Source of the DNA: Oligoflexus sp.
Lineage (GTDB): Bacteria; Bdellovibrionota_B; Oligoflexia; Oligoflexales; Oligoflexaceae
Direction of reading: 5' to 3'
Assembly (NCBI GenBank): GCA_041736305.1
Contig: JBGSTX010000119.1
Coordinates: 1-17,344, forward strand
Length of the DNA: 17,344 bases
Position 1 is the first letter of the stretch, and each line of letters starts with the position of its first letter. The position numbers and the translations under genes are program-made. A model generated the notes under the pieces. The model was not told the origin of the DNA, did no database searches, and was given only the letters and a program-made list of their open reading frames with translations. Shown in pieces: positions 5,159 to 11,880 of this stretch.

Positions 5159-6793
5159 GTGTCAAAAGCAAAGCGGAGAGTCCTGGTTGTCGTCATGGAT
5201 GGGGTCGGTGTGCGCTCTAGTAACTACGGGAATGCGGTAAAGCTCGCTTACACTCCTTATATGCACTTTCTTGAGAAAAAAGGACTGTACCGAACCCTCA
5301 AGGCTCACGGGACTTATGTGGGCCTGCCTAGCAATGCCGACATTGGCAATAGCGAAGTCGGACATAACGCGATGGGAGCCGGACGTATATTCGATCAGGG
5401 AGCCAAATTGGTACAAGAGGCTATTGATTCAGGGAGGCTCTTCGAAGGCCAGAGCTGGCAGGAACTCATATCAAACGTAGTCCAGAAGAAATCCACCTTG
5501 CACTTTTTAGGGCTCCTCTCGGACGGCAATGTCCATGCGCACGAGCAGCATCTCTATGCCATGATGAGAAGGGCAAAGCGAGAAGGGGTGTCGAAGGTTC
5601 GACTCCATCTTTTATTTGACGGGCGCGATGTTGGGGAAAAGACGGCGGAAGTTTACCTGGCTCGTCTTCAGGCAGTGATAGACGAGTTGCAGGGCCCAGC
5701 TTTCGACGTGAAAGTAGCGTCGGGTGGGGGCCGGATGAGTATAACGATGGATCGTTATGAAGCCGATTGGAGCATGGTCCAGCGGGGCTGGGAGACTCAT
5801 GTGTTAGGCGAGGCCCCTAAGACTTTCAGCTCCGCGCACGAAGCTATAGACTCTCTTCGCTTGATGGATAGCAAGGTCACCGATCAGTATTTGCCTCCTT
5901 TCGTAGTTACAGACCACGGTATGCCAGTGGGCCCTGTTCTTGATGGCGATAGCGTCATACTTTTTAATTTCCGTGGCGACCGGGCCATCGAAATCGCGCG
6001 AGCCTTTTCAGAACCGACTTTTGCGGCCTTTCCTCGGCGACGATTTCCTGCCGTGAAGTTTGCCGGAATGATGGAATACGATGGCGATCTTCATATCCCC
6101 CCTCTTTTTTTGGTGACCCCTCCACAGATTGATAAGACCCTGACCGAATATCTGGTCAACGCGGGCGTTCGACAGTTTGCTTGCTCAGAGACGCAAAAGT
6201 TTGGGCACGTAACATATTTTTGGAATGGTAACCGCTCAGGAAAGTTCGACGAAACGCTCGAAGATTACGTAGAAATCCCCTCCGACAACATTCAGTTTGA
6301 TCTCAAACCCTGGATGAAAGCCGCAGAGATTACGCAGTGCACAATCGATCATATGCAAGCTAAGGATTTCAACTTCGGCCGCATCAATTATCCTAACGGT
6401 GACATGGTTGGACATACAGGTAATCTCAGTGCCTGCATAGTTGCAGTGTCCACAGTCGATCTTTGTTTAGGACGACTCATCGAAGCCGCTCGTGAGACAG
6501 ATACCGTGTTGATGGTGACAGCTGATCATGGCAATGCTGATGAGATGTTTGACACAAATAAAGAAGGCCCGGCTGATTGGTTGGACCTTTCTCCTGAGAG
6601 TTGGCCGAAGCCGCGTACTGCGCATACGGTCAGTGAGGTTCCTTTCTATTTTTTCGATCCTCGAGGGCCTGGTGCCTATCGTCTCGCTGATATTCCTGAG
6701 GCAGGTATAGCAAATATAGCGGCGACGGTTCTGACGGTTATGGGTTTGCCGCCTTGTCCGGATTATCTTCCGAGCTTACTGGAGCCGTTATGA
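5159..6793 (+). CDS. gpmI: 2,3-bisphosphoglycerate-independent phosphoglycerate mutase
   Basis: VMDGVG, GNSEVGH (catalytic Ser), DGRD, MDRY, FNFRGDR, SETQKFGHVTYFWNG, NGDMVGHTG, TADHGNA; AAGGAG RBS before the GTG. Confidence 0.95.
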   Translation: MSKAKRRVLVVVMDGVGVRSSNYGNAVKLAYTPYMHFLEKKGLYRTLKAHGTYVGLPSNADIGNSEVGHNAMGAGRIFDQGAKLVQEAIDSGRLFEGQSWQELISNVVQKKSTLHFLGLLSDGNVHAHEQHLYAMMRRAKREGVSKVRLHLLFDGRDVGEKTAEVYLARLQAVIDELQGPAFDVKVASGGGRMSITMDRYEADWSMVQRGWETHVLGEAPKTFSSAHEAIDSLRLMDSKVTDQYLPPFVVTDHGMPVGPVLDGDSVILFNFRGDRAIEIARAFSEPTFAAFPRRRFPAVKFAGMMEYDGDLHIPPLFLVTPPQIDKTLTEYLVNAGVRQFACSETQKFGHVTYFWNGNRSGKFDETLEDYVEIPSDNIQFDLKPWMKAAEITQCTIDHMQAKDFNFGRINYPNGDMVGHTGNLSACIVAVSTVDLCLGRLIEAARETDTVLMVTADHGNADEMFDTNKEGPADWLDLSPESWPKPRTAHTVSEVPFYFFDPRGPGAYRLADIPEAGIANIAATVLTVMGLPPCPDYLPSLLEPL

Positions 6794-7647
6794 ATGAGGA
6801 GGATTGGCTAGCTGAACTCGATCAGCGAGCAGAAGCTGCAGGGGCCTTGTTCGGAGGATTTGTAAAAACCATCGCAGCATTGCGTCATCCTCAGAGCGGC
6901 TGCCCATGGGACCTAGAACAGGACCATAAAACGCTGCGGCGCTTTATGTTGGAAGAAGCCTATGAAGCAGCCGAAGCTATGTTGGGCGACGACGAACAGC
7001 ACCTTCTAGAGGAGTTGGGCGATGTACTCTTGCAAGTAGTTCTGAATGCCCAACTCACCAGTGATCGTGGTGTAGGAGATATTCGTGCTGTCATCACCGG
7101 GATTGAAGAGAAGATGCGGCGGCGGCATCCCCATGTATTCGGTCTAGATAAAGGAGGGAATCAAAGTCAGAGCCGGCTACAGCCTGTGGAAGTAAAAGTC
7201 TCGTGGGAAGCAATCAAGAAAGCTGAGCGTCGGGAAAGTGATGCTGGGATCGAAACCTTTGCGAGCGAAGAAAAAATAATCCCCGCCCTGACGCAAGCTT
7301 ATAAAATCGGCAAAAAAGCGAAAAAAATTGATTTCGATTGGAAAGATTCGCTGGAAGTCCTGGGTCAGCTCCGTTCGGAACTCGGTGAGCTGGAAGCTGA
7401 GCTGAGAGCTGCAAAACCTGACCGAATGGCGATCGAGCAAGAGCTTGGAGATGTATTTTTTACTCTAGCCCAATTGGCGAGGCATCTGGACTTTGAGCCA
7501 GAAGCTGCCGCACAAGCCGGAAATGTGAAATTCCTCAAGCGGTTTAAAGTTGTCGAGGCTATGGCGAAAGAAGGAATGAAGTCAGTTGAAGAGCTAACGC
7601 AAAGCCAGCTCGAAGACTTATGGAAGAAAGCGAAAAAAAAGAAATAA
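6790..7647 (+). CDS. mazG: Nucleoside triphosphate pyrophosphohydrolase MazG
   Basis: GCPWD, EEAYE, EELGDVLLQ, RRHPHVFG and a second-domain ELGD. ATG at 6790 overlaps the gpmI stop (ATGA) with GGAG upstream, preferred over the track start at 6754. Confidence 0.93.
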   Translation: MNEEDWLAELDQRAEAAGALFGGFVKTIAALRHPQSGCPWDLEQDHKTLRRFMLEEAYEAAEAMLGDDEQHLLEELGDVLLQVVLNAQLTSDRGVGDIRAVITGIEEKMRRRHPHVFGLDKGGNQSQSRLQPVEVKVSWEAIKKAERRESDAGIETFASEEKIIPALTQAYKIGKKAKKIDFDWKDSLEVLGQLRSELGELEAELRAAKPDRMAIEQELGDVFFTLAQLARHLDFEPEAAAQAGNVKFLKRFKVVEAMAKEGMKSVEELTQSQLEDLWKKAKKKK

Positions 7648-8074: not shown

Positions 8075-8551
8075 TTATAGGCTTGATTTGGAGAGGGTTT
8101 CTGTCCAGAGACCTTGCTTAGCAAGCAAGGCAGCCTGACGTGCAGCCTCATCAACTCTTTCATTTTCAGGGTGCCCAGCGTGGCCCTTTACCCAGGTCCA
8201 TTTTAGCCGGTGCCGACGAGTCTGCTCTTCGAGTTCTAGCCAGAGGTCCTGGTTTTTTACCTCTTTGTTGGCAGCGGTCTTCCAACCATTAGCATGCCAA
8301 TTTTTCAGCCAATTCTTTTCGAAGGCATCCATTACGTAACGACTGTCGACCACAAGCTCGACGTCACAGCTTTCTTTCAGATACGCCAATCCACGTATCA
8401 CAGCCATGAGTTCCATGCGATTGTTGGTGGTGAGCTTCTCGCTGCCAGAAAGCATCTTCTCATGCTCTCGATAGCGCAAAAGTGCAGCCCATCCGCCTGG
8501 CCCAGGGTTGTCGAGACACGCACCATCGGTGATCAACATGACTTTTTTCAT
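8075..8551 (-). CDS. rnhA: Ribonuclease HI
   Basis: TDGAC.DNPGPGGW, TTNNRMEL, DSRYV, NGWKT, VKNQDLW, WVKGHAGHPENERVD; likely start ATG at 8551 (MKKVMLITDG). Confidence 0.96.
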   Translation of the reverse strand: MKKVMLITDGACLDNPGPGGWAALLRYREHEKMLSGSEKLTTNNRMELMAVIRGLAYLKESCDVELVVDSRYVMDAFEKNWLKNWHANGWKTAANKEVKNQDLWLELEEQTRRHRLKWTWVKGHAGHPENERVDEAARQAALLAKQGLWTETLSKSSL

Positions 8552-8562
8552 CGAAAGCCCTG

Positions 8563-8597
8563 CAAAAAGCAAAAGCGCCCTACGGCGAGAGCGCTTT
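8563..8597 (-). terminator. Intrinsic terminator ending the rpsR-rpmB-smORF operon
   Basis: Minus strand AAAGCGCTCT-CGCCGT-AGGGCGCTTT followed by TGCTTTTT. Confidence 0.65.
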
Positions 8598-8620
8598 GCG
8601 GTCGAGGCGAAGCCTCTCTT

Positions 8621-8731
8621 TTATTTAGCAGATTTGCCAGCTTCGATACGGCGCTTACGGCGAGCCTTCAATTTACGGCGAGCCTTGGAGCGCTTGACTT
8701 TGAGTGTTCTGCGATTATCCCCGCGTCCCAT
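8621..8731 (-). CDS. 36-aa highly basic small protein, Thx (bTHX/PSRP4)-like ribosomal protein candidate
   Basis: MGRGDNRRTLKVKRSKARRKLKARRKRRIEAGKSAK*. GAGG RBS directly after the rpmB stop, followed by a terminator; N-terminus resembles the Thx MG(K/R)GD..T motif. Absent from the ORF track. Confidence 0.75.
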   Translation of the reverse strand: MGRGDNRRTLKVKRSKARRKLKARRKRRIEAGKSAK

Positions 8732-8740
8732 ATATACCTC

Positions 8741-8971
8741 TTACTTCAGTTTTAGGCCGTTTTTGCGTGCAAAACTATCCAGACCAAGCTTATCGATCGT
8801 CCGAATAGTAGATGTCGAAACTTTCAAGGTGATGAACTTTTTCAGCTCAGTCGACCAGAATTTCTTCCTCTGAAGATTGGGAAGGAAGCGGTGCTTGGAT
8901 TTAATGTTGGAATGCGATACGCGGTTTCCAACCAAAACACCCTTGCCAGTCAATTCACAGCGACGAGACAT
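8741..8971 (-). CDS. rpmB: 50S ribosomal protein L28
   Basis: MSRRCELTGK...GNRVSHSN.K...RFLPNLQ...LKVST..IRTIDK.G. Confidence 0.96.
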   Translation of the reverse strand: MSRRCELTGKGVLVGNRVSHSNIKSKHRFLPNLQRKKFWSTELKKFITLKVSTSTIRTIDKLGLDSFARKNGLKLK

Positions 8972-8973
8972 GT

Positions 8974-9333
8974 TTATTCCTCTCCGTCACGATTTGGCTT
9001 GTCTTCAGAACGAGGACCCCTTGGGCCGCCGGACCGGCTAGAAGTGCCCATAGCTGAAGTAGCAATCGCGGACATTTCCGTTGCAAAATTGCGTTCTTGA
9101 CGATGGCCGAGACTGTAGGGGATCAGGGCCAGATACCGAGCTCTCTTAACCGCGTTACAGATCGCGCGTTGCTGCTTGGCAGTAGCACCCGAAATGCGGC
9201 GTGGAATGATTTTACCACGGTCAGTGATGAAGCGCCGAAGGACTTCTGGGTTTTTGTAGTCGATAATGATGCTCGGGTCCAAGGTCCGCTTGCGACGGAA
9301 CATCAGACGTCTTTTTTTCCTAGCGTTTGCCAT
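8974..9333 (-). CDS. rpsR: 30S ribosomal protein S18 with C-terminal extension
   Basis: [31 protein letters not shown]....[13 protein letters not shown]; start set to ATG 9333 because GGAGG precedes it. Confidence 0.93.
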
Positions 9334-9460
9334 TGCGGCCTCCGGTAATGCTAAATCAGATATTCTTGCGATCTGATGGGGGATGCTAGTAGTTTCAACA
9401 ACACGCATAAGCCAGGAGTCTTGCTCCCGGCCATGTGGGACACCACCCTAAAGGTGTTGC

Positions 9461-9489: not shown

Positions 9490-9585
9490 GCGTAAATAGA
9501 AAGCTAGGCAGGTCATTTTGCCTTGTTTTTAAGCGCAAAAATAGAAGATCCAGCTCCTCAGACGATTTTGGAAGGCGTGGTGCCC

Positions 9586-11880
9586 GTGCATTATCTCGAT
9601 ATTTCTATCCCCGTTGCCTTAGACCAAAGCTTTACTTACCTCGCCAGCAGCGATATTCCGGCGGGCTGTCGGGTATTAGTGCCTTTTGGAGAGCGGAACC
9701 GCAAAACTGTAGGCGTTGTTTTAGGTGCGAGCCCCCATAGGTCTGCAGGCAAAGGACCCCTGAAGGAGGTTCTAGAACGGCTCGACGATGGACCGGCTTA
9801 TAGTAGCGAGCTTATGCGTCTCGCTCAGTGGATAAGTCAATATTACCTATACCCTCTTGGCGAAGTTCTGCGGAGCATGCTCCCCGCCTCGCAAACCAAG
9901 ACGAAAGCTAACAAAGTCCGCATGAGCGTGGAGGGGGAAGTAGCATGGAAAGACGAAGCTCACCCTTTGCATCAGACTTTGCGTGCTCTCTGGAAAAAGA
10001 GGGGTACAGTCAGTTTGACCGTATGGACGAAGCGTTTGCAGCTCTTCTTAGAAACAGCACCTCCAGGTAAAAAGTTAAGTCTCAGCCGCATGGAAAAGGA
10101 CGGCTGGCTCATCAAAGAAAGCAGCCAGAGTACGAGCGTGAGACGCTGGAAGGACTTTGACGACGAACTCGCGGCAGGTGGGACGGCAGAATTTGAAAAA
10201 GACTTGAGCGAAGCACAAAAAACCGTGCTCGAGGCTCTCTCTCTCGCTGCTCAATCCAAGCCTGAAGAAATGAAGCCTGTTCTTCTTCATGGTGTAACCG
10301 GTGCAGGTAAGACCGAGCTTTATCTCCAGCTCATCGCCCGTTATCTGAGTTCTGACGCTGATTCTCAGATACTCGTTCTAGTGCCAGAGATCGCGCTTAC
10401 TCCCCAGATGACACGCGTCTTCACACACAGGTTTCCGCAGCGGATTGCCGTCGTGCATTCGGCGATGAGTCCAAGTGATCGCTGGGCCCAGCTGACGGCA
10501 ATCAAGCAGAAGCAAAAAAGCATTCTCATAGGTCCGCGATCAGCAGTTTTTGCTCCCTTTACTTCGTTACGACTTATCATCGTCGATGAAGAGCATGACA
10601 GTAGCTACAAGCAGGGTGCGGGGTTGAGTTATAATGGCCGGGATGTAGCCGTTATGCGAGGGCATCTGGAAAAAGTTCTCGTCGTCTTGGGCAGCGCCAC
10701 TCCTTCTATGGAATCCTACGCCAATGCAGAACAGGGTAAATACCAACTTCTGAGGCTGTCAGAGAGGGCTCTGGGAAGGCCGATGCCGCACATTACTCTT
10801 ATCGAGCCAGAAATGAGCCAGTCATATGCCAAAAGACTGCAGCGGCCTGGTGTCGAACTCACGCTTCTCGACCTTCCTGTTGATCCCAGAATACTGACGG
10901 CTCTCCGGGAAAATCATGCTAAAGGGCTGCAATCGATGGTCCTTGTCAATCGTCGTGGCTATGCCTATTACCTATTCTCGCTGCGCGAACGAAAGGCAGT
11001 CACCTGTCCTCAGTGCAGTATTTCACTTACTGTTCATAAAAATTCGAGTCTGCTGCGGTGTCACTACTGCGATTACCAGCGGCGACTCGATCAAATGCTG
11101 GGCAGTGAGGATAGAGATGCCTATGTGCTAGTTGGTTATGGCAGCGAGCAAATGGAAATTTTTCTCGGCGAAGCCCTTCCTGGGGTGAGAATCCAAAGGG
11201 TCGATTCCGATACTGTCACCCAGCGTGACGCTCTTCCAAAAATTTTGGAAGATTTTCGGATGGGGCGTATCGATGTCTTGGTCGGAACCCAGATGCTGGC
11301 TAAGGGTCACGATTTTGCAAAGGTGACTCTTATTTGCATTCTTGAAATCGACCAAACCCTGAATCTTCCAGATTTTCGTGCCGGTGAAAGAACTTTTCAG
11401 CTCATGGTACAGGCTGCCGGTCGAGCCGGGCGAGATGCTTGGGCTGGTGAGGTTCTCATCCAGAGTCAGAAACAAGGCCACCCTGTGCTCGAGGCAGGCA
11501 TCGCTCAGGATTACCTGGCTTTTTGGGATGATCAGAAAGCTTTCCGCCGTGTCCACGGCTACCCGCCTTACTCCCGCATGATACTTTTCGAAATATCTTC
11601 AGCGAAGAAGGACCTTCTGGAATCCTGGGTTCGTGGGCTGAGTCAATGGCTCAGCAGTCTGCAGAAGCGTTACCCTACAGAGCTGTCAAGGCTTCAAATC
11701 CTCGGTCCAGCCGTACCTCCCATCGAGATGATAAGAGGGCGTCTGCGGCGTACGTTACTCCTCATCAGTGAAGATCGTCACAGTCTCTGGTCGCTTGCAA
11801 AGCAGCTCAAAAGCGACTTTGCAAAGCTGCCAGGCGATTTACAGCTACGCGTCGACGTCGATCCGCAGAGTCTCATGTAG
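9586..11880 (+). CDS. priA: Primosomal protein N' (replication restart helicase)
   Basis: G.RVLVPFG, GVTGAGKTELY, LVPEIALTPQ, VDEEHD.SYKQ, GSATPS.ES, NRRGY, GTQMLAKGHDF, PDFRA.ER, Q.AGRAGR, YPPY, VDVDP. Start uncertain (GTG 9577/9580/9586; track gives TTG 9523). Confidence 0.95.
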   Translation: MHYLDISIPVALDQSFTYLASSDIPAGCRVLVPFGERNRKTVGVVLGASPHRSAGKGPLKEVLERLDDGPAYSSELMRLAQWISQYYLYPLGEVLRSMLPASQTKTKANKVRMSVEGEVAWKDEAHPLHQTLRALWKKRGTVSLTVWTKRLQLFLETAPPGKKLSLSRMEKDGWLIKESSQSTSVRRWKDFDDELAAGGTAEFEKDLSEAQKTVLEALSLAAQSKPEEMKPVLLHGVTGAGKTELYLQLIARYLSSDADSQILVLVPEIALTPQMTRVFTHRFPQRIAVVHSAMSPSDRWAQLTAIKQKQKSILIGPRSAVFAPFTSLRLIIVDEEHDSSYKQGAGLSYNGRDVAVMRGHLEKVLVVLGSATPSMESYANAEQGKYQLLRLSERALGRPMPHITLIEPEMSQSYAKRLQRPGVELTLLDLPVDPRILTALRENHAKGLQSMVLVNRRGYAYYLFSLRERKAVTCPQCSISLTVHKNSSLLRCHYCDYQRRLDQMLGSEDRDAYVLVGYGSEQMEIFLGEALPGVRIQRVDSDTVTQRDALPKILEDFRMGRIDVLVGTQMLAKGHDFAKVTLICILEIDQTLNLPDFRAGERTFQLMVQAAGRAGRDAWAGEVLIQSQKQGHPVLEAGIAQDYLAFWDDQKAFRRVHGYPPYSRMILFEISSAKKDLLESWVRGLSQWLSSLQKRYPTELSRLQILGPAVPPIEMIRGRLRRTLLLISEDRHSLWSLAKQLKSDFAKLPGDLQLRVDVDPQSLM

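What the first reader, a model, noticed from the sequence alone, without database searches (positions are those of the whole stretch)
8621..8731. Unannotated 36-aa Thx-like basic protein closing a ribosomal protein operon
Seen: MGRGDNRRTLKVKRSKARRKLKARRKRRIEAGKSAK (18 of 36 residues K/R), with its own GAGG RBS, 9 nt after the rpmB stop and followed by a terminator. It uses CGT/CGC/GCT/AAA-type codons and has an internal KARRK duplication. Known: bTHX/PSRP4 begins MG(K/R)GD..T and binds the 30S head. Here the GK...G..G part of Thx is replaced by a probable basic helix more like bS22/mS38-type peptides. Inference: a divergent or new lineage-specific small ribosomal protein.
Basis: partly seen in the sequence, partly recalled or inferred. 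Interest (0 to 1): 0.7.

Follow-up and report, generated by a model that had tools for sequence, protein, structure and literature searches.

The report
New tiny basic ribosomal-operon protein family
A real, conserved 36-residue, very basic protein is encoded at the end of a ribosomal-protein operon in Oligoflexus and belongs to an unnamed family spread over predatory and gliding bacteria; it is probably an undescribed small ribosomal protein, but this has not been shown at the bench.

Summary
It is a real gene: third codon positions vary 2.6 times more than first and second, and close pairs give dN/dS of 0-0.18. It has one copy in 124 of 131 genomes of its phylum (Oligoflexia-type Bdellovibrionota).

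In 26 of 30 loci from that phylum it closes an rpsR-rpmB-X operon. In 16 of 50 loci from a second phylum (Bdellovibrionota proper) it sits directly upstream of rpsR. So it is linked to bS18 in two different gene orders.

No Pfam, NCBIfam or PDB sequence matches it or 104 relatives. It is not a member of bTHX, bS22 or bL38 by their models. A profile-profile comparison with 58 Thx sequences aligns only the first 8 residues (MGrGDNRr against MGKGD~RT). That match beats all 200 column shuffles.

AlphaFold2 gives a loop at residues 1-9 and one helix at 10-35 (pLDDT 90).

Best reading (0.6): an undescribed family of tiny rRNA-binding ribosomal proteins, probably of the 30S subunit, with a Thx-like N-terminal anchor. 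Ribosome binding is inferred, not shown.

The parts
8621..8731 (-). Gene X: 36-aa basic protein (stop TAA at 8621-8623), member of an unnamed family with consensus MGRGDNRxTxKMRRRKxQxKxKARxKR
   Evidence: ORF; orthologs; selection; 151 representative clusters at E<=1e-3; loop 1-9, helix 10-35
8737..8740 (-). Shine-Dalgarno-like GAGG, 5 nt before the ATG and directly after the rpmB stop codon
   Evidence: SD-like motif in 20 of 20 orthologous loci, with a gap of 9-13 nt from the rpmB stop to the ATG in 19 of 20
8741..8971 (-). rpmB (bL28), 76 aa
   Evidence: TIGR00009 90.2 bits; PF00830
8974..9408 (-). rpsR (bS18). This is the longest ORF; the likely start is the Met at 9330 (MANARKKRR...), as in relatives. 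It carries a conserved C-terminal extension of about 45 aa
   Evidence: TIGR00165 80.2 bits; alignment A4
8562..8616 (-). Operon end: small hairpin at 8616-8604, then an intrinsic-terminator-like hairpin at 8597-8572 and a T-run
   Evidence: hairpin plus T-run also visible by eye after X in several relatives' downstream sequences; RNA-library contigs of a relative laid here cover only 8607-9439 (weak)
8075..8551 (-). rnhA (RNase HI), next gene downstream and beyond the terminator; context only
   Evidence: NF001236 209.8 bits
7693..7959 (-). rpsT (bS20), context. In three relatives (L009, L013, L019) it follows X directly without rnhA

Best explanation
Gene X encodes a member of an undescribed family of tiny (34-60 aa), very basic proteins. 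It most likely acts as a structural, rRNA-binding component of the ribosome, more probably of the 30S subunit. It is made from the same transcript as bS18 and bL28. After removal of the initiator Met, the conserved N-terminal loop G-R-G-D-N-R-x-T would act as an anchor in an rRNA pocket, as the matching motif of bTHX is thought to do. The 26-residue Lys/Arg helix would lie along rRNA and neutralise phosphate charge. Its narrow hydrophobic stripe (M/V12, L21, I25, I29) could pack against a neighbouring protein. Shown: the gene is real, under selection, single-copy and near-universal in its phylum; it sits in an operon with rpsR; it shares an N-terminal motif with Thx; it is predicted to be helical. 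Inferred: binding to the ribosome, the subunit, the binding site and the roles of the two parts.
For: Coding: across 20 orthologs, mean pairwise difference by codon position is 0.20/0.21/0.54, and close pairs give dN/dS of 0-0.18. Core-gene behaviour: exactly one match in 124 of 131 genomes of the phylum, and in 81 of 83 high-quality genomes. Operon: rpsR-rpmB-X in 20 of 20 loci and in 26 of 30 phylum loci. The gap is 9-13 nt in 19 of 20, an SD-like motif is present in 20 of 20, and a terminator follows X. In L009, L013 and L019, rpsT follows X directly. Second arrangement: in Bdellovibrionota proper, X lies directly upstream of rpsR on the same strand in 16 of the 50 loci examined (50 of 79 matches). 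In L207 the X stop overlaps the rpsR start. N-terminus: hhalign of 105 family members against 58 Thx sequences aligns columns 1-8 only, score 22.5, P 2.2e-4; 0 of 200 column shuffles reach that score (mean 8.5, sd 2.1, max 20.0). MG[KR]GD occurs only 4 times in the six-frame translation of the 5.0-Mb genome. Structure: AF2 pLDDT 90.2, helix 10-35. Composition: 50% K/R. Codon use leans to the r-protein style. Weak: contigs from RNA libraries of a relative about 91% identical bridge rpmB and X (8621-8911), and none of those laid covers rnhA (one sample). Precedents: bL38 is encoded after rpmB-rpmG in Bacteroidia (PMC11851116, passages read). bS22 went unannotated in Borrelia until cryo-EM found it (PMC10618245, passages read).
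Against: There is no protein-level or ribosome-level evidence. No chain of any solved ribosome resembles it in sequence. Outside the order of G000 and one Bdellovibrionota clade, the gene is not next to ribosomal genes: 29 of 46 genome-contig loci, 0 of 16 Myxococcota loci and 34 of 50 Bdellovibrionota loci. Its neighbours there are BamA/Skp, OMP barrels, a thioesterase, thymidine kinase, glyoxalase and others. The distribution is patchy: 62 of 201 Myxococcota genomes, 19 of which match only from model position 8 onwards, and 79 of 151 Bdellovibrionota genomes. Two genomes of its own phylum that are at least 94% complete lack it (family f17). One Bdellovibrionota subgroup has lost the GDN motif (MGKGRK...), so the 'anchor' is not invariant. 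Only 8 columns align with Thx, and short-motif convergence is possible. The 16 X-rpsR loci may be one clade and so one evolutionary event.
Confidence: 0.6

Rival explanations
1. X is the lineage's true bTHX orthologue. It would occupy the Thx site in the 30S head (between h41 and h42), with the C-terminal two thirds remodelled from a Gly/aromatic coil into a helix.
For: The shared N-terminal octapeptide beats chance. Canonical Thx was not found over the cut-off in 0 of 131 genomes of this phylum. The only 2 of 201 Myxococcota genomes with canonical Thx (G168, G179) have no X match. One Thermus-like Thx locus has rpsT directly upstream (L193), and rpsT abuts X in three relatives.
Against: The Thx model TIGR04560 does not list the ORF even at E<=10. 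A Thx HMM built here gives the ORF 1.6 bits, and at most 11.4 bits to any of the 150 family representatives returned, against a family cut-off of 26. The Thx core RGKIFRG[TS]YG..RP is absent. 0 of 82 Thx loci have rpsR or rpmB nearby. Mutual exclusion rests on only 2 genomes.
Confidence: 0.2
2. X is a bS22/eL41/mS38-type peptide. It would fill the conserved pocket formed by 16S h2, h27, h44 and h45 and 23S H68 at the subunit interface.
For: It has the same general make-up: 30-36 aa, 50-61% K/R, helical, often unannotated, and the pocket is conserved across bacteria (PMC10618245, passages read). AF2 predicts one long basic helix.
Against: COX24_C (PF08213) finds nothing in the genome at E<=10. 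None of 105 family members hits it at E<=1. PDB, which per PMC10618245 holds bS22-containing mycobacterial, Bacteroidetes and Borrelia ribosome structures, gives no match at E<=10 to the sequence or to profile A1, and only three unrelated hits (E 1.5-5.3) to profile A2. X has a non-helical 9-residue conserved head. The model shows no bend.
Confidence: 0.12
3. X is not a stoichiometric ribosomal protein. It is instead a general nucleic-acid-binding micro-protein, such as an RNA chaperone, a ribosome-assembly or hibernation helper, or a nucleoid-associated peptide, that happens to ride on r-protein transcripts in some lineages.
For: Gene contexts are varied and non-ribosomal in most Myxococcota and many Bdellovibrionota. 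In Kofleriaceae it has its own promoter-like element. The distribution is patchy. The hydrophobic stripe suggests a protein partner.
Against: Linkage to rpsR occurs in two different gene orders in two phyla. It is single-copy and near-universal in Oligoflexia. Accessory r-proteins such as bTHX, bS21 and bS22 are patchy too (PMC11851116 introduction).
Confidence: 0.2
4. The ORF is not translated. The conserved sequence would be a 3' UTR, a regulatory RNA or part of the terminator.
For: It is very short, lies next to a terminator, and no proteomic evidence exists.
Against: Variation follows the codon-position pattern and dN/dS is well below 1. The frame, start codon and SD-like motif are kept in 20 of 20 loci. 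The protein family is recognisable at 40-60% identity across three phyla in unrelated DNA contexts.
Confidence: 0.02

Closest known systems
bTHX (Thx / PSRP4; NCBIfam TIGR04560)
   Same: It is a tiny, very basic protein. The N-terminus MG[KR]GDxR..[TS] is shared: all 62 distinct Thx sequences fetched here begin MG[KR]GD, and the profile-profile match covers columns 1-8. It is variably present among lineages.
   Different: X lacks the Thx core RGKIFRG[TS]YG..RP and carries a predicted 26-residue helix instead. It fails the family model. It has one extra residue (N6) in the motif. It is linked to rpsR, whereas 0 of 82 Thx loci are. The binding site of Thx (30S head, h41/h42; PMC5737520, passages read) is untested for X.
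bS22 (and its analogues mS38 / eL41)
   Same: It has a similar size (30-36 aa), high K/R content and helical character. It is easily missed by annotation. It is the same kind of rRNA-pocket filler (PMC10618245, passages read).
   Different: No sequence relationship was detected. X has a conserved non-helical N-terminal head and no predicted bend.
bL38 (DUF4295, rpmL) of Bacteroidia
   Same: It is a lineage-specific small protein encoded as the last gene of an operon that begins with rpmB (PMC11851116, abstract and passages read).
   Different: bL38 is 5.6 kDa with a beta-hairpin plus helix and binds uL6 on the 50S subunit. X does not match DUF4295 and is predicted to be all-helical.

Membership tests
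bTHX (TIGR04560) | Scores over the curated model cut-off (26 bits) | tested here: not met
   No NCBIfam hit at E<=10. The ORF is not among the genome's hits at E<=10, with 48 candidates scored. It scores 1.6 bits against a Thx HMM built here from 58 sequences. The best of the 150 family representatives returned scores 11.4 bits.
bTHX (TIGR04560) | N-terminal motif MG[KR]GDx[RK][TS] | tested here: met
   hhalign aligns columns 1-8 with P 2.2e-4; 0 of 200 column shuffles reach the score. X has one extra residue (N6) before R-x-T.
bTHX (TIGR04560) | Gly/aromatic core RGKIFRG[TS]YG..RP | tested here: not met
   Alignments A1 and A2 against the Thx set; nothing aligns beyond column 8.
bTHX (TIGR04560) | Bound in the 30S head between h41 and h42 | not testable with these tools
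   Needs cryo-EM or crosslinking. The site is taken from PMC5737520 (passages read).
bS22 (Pfam COX24_C PF08213; solved bS22 chains) | Sequence match to the family model or to solved bS22 chains | tested here: not met
   PF08213 gives 0 hits in the genome at E<=10. 0 of 105 members hit it at E<=1. PDB gives 0 relevant hits at E<=10. Caveat: the model also failed to ring in the Bacteroides control genome, so it is narrow.
bS22 (Pfam COX24_C PF08213; solved bS22 chains) | About 30-33 aa, about 60% K/R, bent helix | tested here: inconclusive
   X is 36 aa and 50% K/R, with one straight helix at 10-35 after a 9-residue loop. A free-peptide model cannot show a bend that forms on binding.
bL38 (DUF4295, PF14128) | Match to DUF4295; beta-hairpin plus helix fold | tested here: not met
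   No Pfam hit at E<=10. The genome's only DUF4295 hit (E 1.65) lies elsewhere. The model has no strands.
Bacterial ribosomal protein (generic) | Encoded in an operon with ribosomal-protein genes, conserved across relatives | tested here: met
   rpsR-rpmB-X in 20 of 20 loci and 26 of 30 loci. X-rpsR in 16 of 50 loci of a second phylum. Not met in Myxococcota: 0 of 16 loci.
Bacterial ribosomal protein (generic) | Single-copy and near-universal within the lineage | tested here: met
   124 of 131 genomes, one match each; 81 of 83 high-quality genomes. Patchy elsewhere: 62 of 201 and 79 of 151.
Bacterial ribosomal protein (generic) | Physically present in purified ribosomes | not testable with these tools
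   Needs mass spectrometry or cryo-EM of ribosomes.

The most novel reading that the evidence does not exclude
X founds a previously undescribed ribosomal-protein family shared by Oligoflexia, Bdellovibrionota and part of Myxococcota. It would be built from a Thx-type N-terminal rRNA anchor fused to a new basic helix, showing that tiny ribosomal proteins evolve by swapping modules. It would sit on the 30S subunit as a partner of the unusually extended bS18 of these bacteria, with which its gene is linked in two different orders.
Probability: 0.3. Interest if true: 0.72.

Novelty: new variant of a known kind. Interest (0 to 1): 0.55.

Why it matters
Small lineage-specific ribosomal proteins such as bS22, bL37 and bL38 have so far been found only when a ribosome of that lineage was solved. 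The literature searches made here for a ribosome structure of this group, one on Myxococcus and one on Oligoflexus, listed none; Bdellovibrio was not searched.

This gene gives a concrete, testable candidate in at least one cultured organism. Oligoflexus tunisiensis Shr3 carries it (L038).

If confirmed, it would add a ribosomal protein to the bacterial catalogue. It would give annotation pipelines a model for a gene now left unnamed. It would also offer a case of partial, modular relatedness between two micro-proteins, bTHX and X.

If it proves not to be ribosomal, it is still a near-universal, strongly selected micro-protein of unknown role in predatory bacteria.

Tried and rejected
I used the search of protein representatives with a profile instead.
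The names that public records give these proteins could therefore not be seen, and 'unannotated' remains unverified.
- Pfam and NCBIfam gave nothing credible for the ORF or for 105 family members; there were only single chance hits.
- The PDB sequence searches gave only three low-complexity hits at E 1.5-5.3, to L22-type tails and a PfEMP1 domain. I judged these to be chance.
- Foldseek of the single-helix model against PDB gave 0 matches at E<=10. This is uninformative for one helix.
- The ESM Atlas lead to DUF6800 (carried by 19% of members of one cluster ranked 28th) was not borne out. PF20607 does not hit the ORF.
- The idea that X replaces bL33 or bS21 was rejected, because both are present elsewhere in the genome.
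- Complex prediction of bS18 (residues 27-144) with X returned 'no answer' (score 0.00 against a mark of 0.32). This is no evidence either way.
- Read laying: RNA-library contigs of a relative cover 8607-9439 only. The lack of cover over rnhA cannot be used as evidence. The runs come from one sample, and contigs do not show strand or transcript ends.
- Literature: 'MGRGDNR' occurs in 0 papers. The searches for Oligoflexus plus ribosomal protein and for Myxococcus ribosome cryo-EM listed nothing about this family.
- The search of earlier findings by sequence and by place found nothing.

Full report
**Observation**

The window's minus strand carries four genes in a row:
- rpsR (8974-9408; S18, TIGR00165, 80.2 bits)
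- rpmB (8741-8971; L28, TIGR00009, 90.2 bits)
- the 36-codon ORF (8621-8731)
- after a hairpin and T-run, rnhA and rpsT

The ORF reads MGRGDNRRTLKVKRSKARRKLKARRKRRIEAGKSAK, with 18 K/R in 36 residues. Its ATG lies 9 nt after the rpmB stop, and GAGG sits 5 nt upstream of the ATG. A terminator-like site on the minus strand (8597->8572, 10 pairs, then TGCTTTTTGC) follows the stop. The KARRK-L-KARRK repeat is real and rests on an exact 14-nt DNA repeat. Relatives read KARRKLKARIK and similar, so the repeat is local. Arg is CGT/CGC in 9 of 10 codons and Ala is GCT in 4 of 4, against 0.55 and 0.31 in 1274 long ORFs of the genome. This is a small sample that leans to the style of the neighbouring r-protein genes.

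**It is a real gene**

A search of 41 related genomes found the ORF in 38. In all 20 loci returned, it lies directly after rpsR-rpmB. In those same loci:
- The frame, ATG and stop are kept.
- An SD-like motif is present in 20 of 20.
- The gap to the rpmB stop is 9-13 nt in 19 of 20.

Over 33 aligned codons, the mean pairwise difference is 0.20, 0.21 and 0.54 at codon positions 1, 2 and 3. Mean pN/pS is 0.27, with pS near saturation. Six close pairs give dN/dS of 0-0.18. The reading 'untranslated RNA element' is therefore rejected.

**Who has it**

A profile of 18 orthologs found 151 clusters (representatives at 50% identity) at E<=1e-3 among 1.84 billion proteins. The consensus is MGRGDNRxTxKMRRRKxQxKxKARxKR, followed by a variable Ala/Lys/Pro tail.

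An exact-motif scan of 185,579 species genomes gave 46 loci. Their titles name:
- Oligoflexus, including the cultured O. tunisiensis Shr3
- Oligoflexales, Pseudobacteriovorax and Bdellovibrionia
- Kofleriaceae, Nannocystaceae, Bradymonadales and Myxococcales
- MAGs labelled only as Proteobacteria, Pseudomonadota or Deltaproteobacteria bacterium, plus one labelled Polynucleobacter

Whole-genome profile searches gave these counts:

| Group searched | Genomes with a match | Notes |
|---|---|---|
| The window's own phylum | 124 of 131 | One match each; 81 of 83 high-quality genomes. The 7 misses include two genomes at least 94% complete, both in family f17. |
| Phylum of a Bdellovibrionia genome | 79 of 151 | |
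| Phylum of a Kofleriaceae genome | 62 of 201 | 43 match from model position 1-2; 19 match only from position 8 or later. |

**Gene context**

In the window's phylum, 26 of 30 loci have rpsR-rpmB directly upstream. The 4 without it all belong to the other order. In three relatives, rpsT follows X within about 20-45 nt.

In Bdellovibrionota I examined 50 of the 79 matches: 10 returned loci plus the next 40 by E-value, which I fetched. In 16 of the 50, X lies directly upstream of rpsR on the same strand. In L207 the X stop overlaps the rpsR start, and in L202 the gap is 35 nt. These 16 may be one clade.

So X is linked to bS18 in two different gene orders in two phyla. This is the strongest argument for a ribosomal role.

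Elsewhere the neighbours vary:
- Kofleriaceae: a BamA-like gene upstream and a thioesterase downstream.
- The Bradymonadales-labelled locus: BamA and Skp upstream.
- A Bdellovibrionia locus: OMP barrels.
- Myxococcota: thymidine kinase, glyoxalase, Glu dehydrogenase, and RsgA about 750 nt away.

**RNA**

Contigs from two RNA-library runs of one sample, from a relative about 91% identical, cover 8621-8911 (bridging rpmB and X), 8607-8730 and 8739-9439. This shows the stretch is present in an RNA library and contiguous with rpmB. It does not show strand, transcript ends or translation.

**Known families tested**

Pfam and NCBIfam give no hit for the ORF at E<=10. They give none beyond single chance hits for 105 members at E<=1.

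| Family model | Result on the ORF |
|---|---|
| TIGR04560 (Thx) | No hit |
| PF08213 (COX24_C / bS22) | No hit |
| PF14128 (DUF4295 / bL38) | No hit |
| PF20607 (DUF6800, an Atlas lead) | No hit |

PDB sequence searches with the ORF and with both profiles find no ribosomal micro-protein. Canonical Thx is over its cut-off in 0 of 131 genomes of this phylum. It is over the cut-off in 2 of 201 Myxococcota genomes, and neither of those has X.

**Relation to Thx**

From those two Thx genes I fetched 80 metagenome loci, which gave 62 distinct Thx sequences. All begin MG[KR]GD and continue as [KR]RGKIFRG[TS]YG..RP.

- hhalign of the family (105 rows) against Thx (58 rows of 60 aa or fewer) aligns only columns 1-8 (MGrGDNRr against MGKGD~RT): probability 45%, P 2.2e-4, score 22.5.
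- With the Thx columns shuffled (Met kept in place), 0 of 200 trials reach the real score (mean 8.5, sd 2.1, max 20.0).
- HMM-to-sequence cross scores are at most 11.4 bits. The window's ORF scores 1.6 bits.
- MG[KR]GD occurs 4 times in the whole six-frame translation of the genome.
- 0 of 82 Thx loci have rpsR or rpmB nearby. One has rpsT upstream.

The N-terminal motif is therefore shared beyond chance, but X is not a Thx family member. Whether the shared head reflects common descent or convergence on one rRNA-binding solution is open.

**Structure**

AlphaFold2 with the 105-row alignment gives mean pLDDT 90.2, a loop at residues 1-9 and one helix at 10-35. Conserved non-basic positions (M/V12, A17, L21, I25, I29) form a narrow stripe on the helix. 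Foldseek finds nothing, as expected for a single helix.

**Mechanism (inferred)**

X is co-translated with bS18 and bL28. The initiator Met is removed before Gly2. The conserved head would insert into an rRNA pocket, and the Lys/Arg helix would lie in a groove, stabilising the local rRNA fold. This is how bTHX works in the 30S head (PMC5737520) and how bS22 works at h44/h45 (PMC10618245).

The genetic company (rpsR twice, rpsT, rpmB) leans to the 30S subunit. I put 0.6 on 'bona fide ribosome-bound protein of a new family'. Within that, I put about 0.2 on the Thx site and 0.12 on the bS22 site. I put about 0.2 on a non-stoichiometric or non-ribosomal nucleic-acid binder.

**Novelty**

No paper in the library holds the motif, and no model names the family. 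Tiny lineage-specific ribosomal proteins are a known kind, and bL38 is even encoded after rpmB (PMC11851116). So this is a new variant of a known kind, not a new category.

The public names of these proteins could not be looked up, and paper supplements were closed. An existing but obscure annotation therefore cannot be excluded.

Noticed in passing
window 8974-9408 (-); alignment A4: bS18 of Oligoflexales carries a conserved C-terminal extension of about 45 residues ([24 protein letters not shown]..., ending in acidic DGEE). The ORF call also adds 26 N-terminal residues that most relatives lack, so the likely true start is the Met at 9330. In the Bdellovibrionota genomes with X-rpsR, bS18 instead has a Gly/Arg-rich N-terminal extension.
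   Followed up: partly
L034, L037, L042, L049-L052, L055, L057-L059, L061, L065, L066 (Kofleriaceae-type loci), 13-16 nt before the ATG: In 25 Kofleriaceae-type loci the gene stands alone. 14 of them have no SD but carry a TA[TC]A[AG][GA] hexamer that starts 13-16 nt before the ATG, which suggests a leaderless or near-leaderless mRNA. 9 have AGGAG at -9 to -12, and 4 of those carry the hexamer further upstream at -26 to -30.
   Followed up: partly
L232, L236-L247 (Bdellovibrionota): A subgroup of the family has lost the GDN part of the N-terminal motif (MGKGRK..., MGMGRKR...) while keeping the KMK.RK.QAKKKA helix. The Thx-like head is therefore not indispensable.
   Followed up: no
L193:662-1024: In one Thermus-like metagenome contig, the 26-aa Thx gene lies 40 nt after rpsT. 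This echoes the X-rpsT adjacency in three Oligoflexales relatives.
   Followed up: no
window 8656-8687 (ORF nt 45-76): An exact 14-nt direct repeat with an 18-nt period inside the ORF produces the KARRK-L-KARRK duplication. Only the closest relative, L002, reads the near-identical KARRKLKTRRK. This looks like a recent micro-duplication or conversion.
   Followed up: partly
window 6754-7647 (+) and 9523-11880 (+): The flanking genes look like a MazG-type NTP pyrophosphohydrolase and the primosomal helicase PriA, read from the translations only. priA is divergent from the rpsR operon, which leaves about 115 nt for both promoters.
   Followed up: no
P0027, P0037, P0054, P0087, P0122, P0133: A few database representatives are 117-221 aa long, with the family sequence at the N-terminus. 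At least P0122 looks like a read-through call into the downstream OMP-barrel gene seen in L039, and so is probably an annotation artefact and not a fusion.
   Followed up: no
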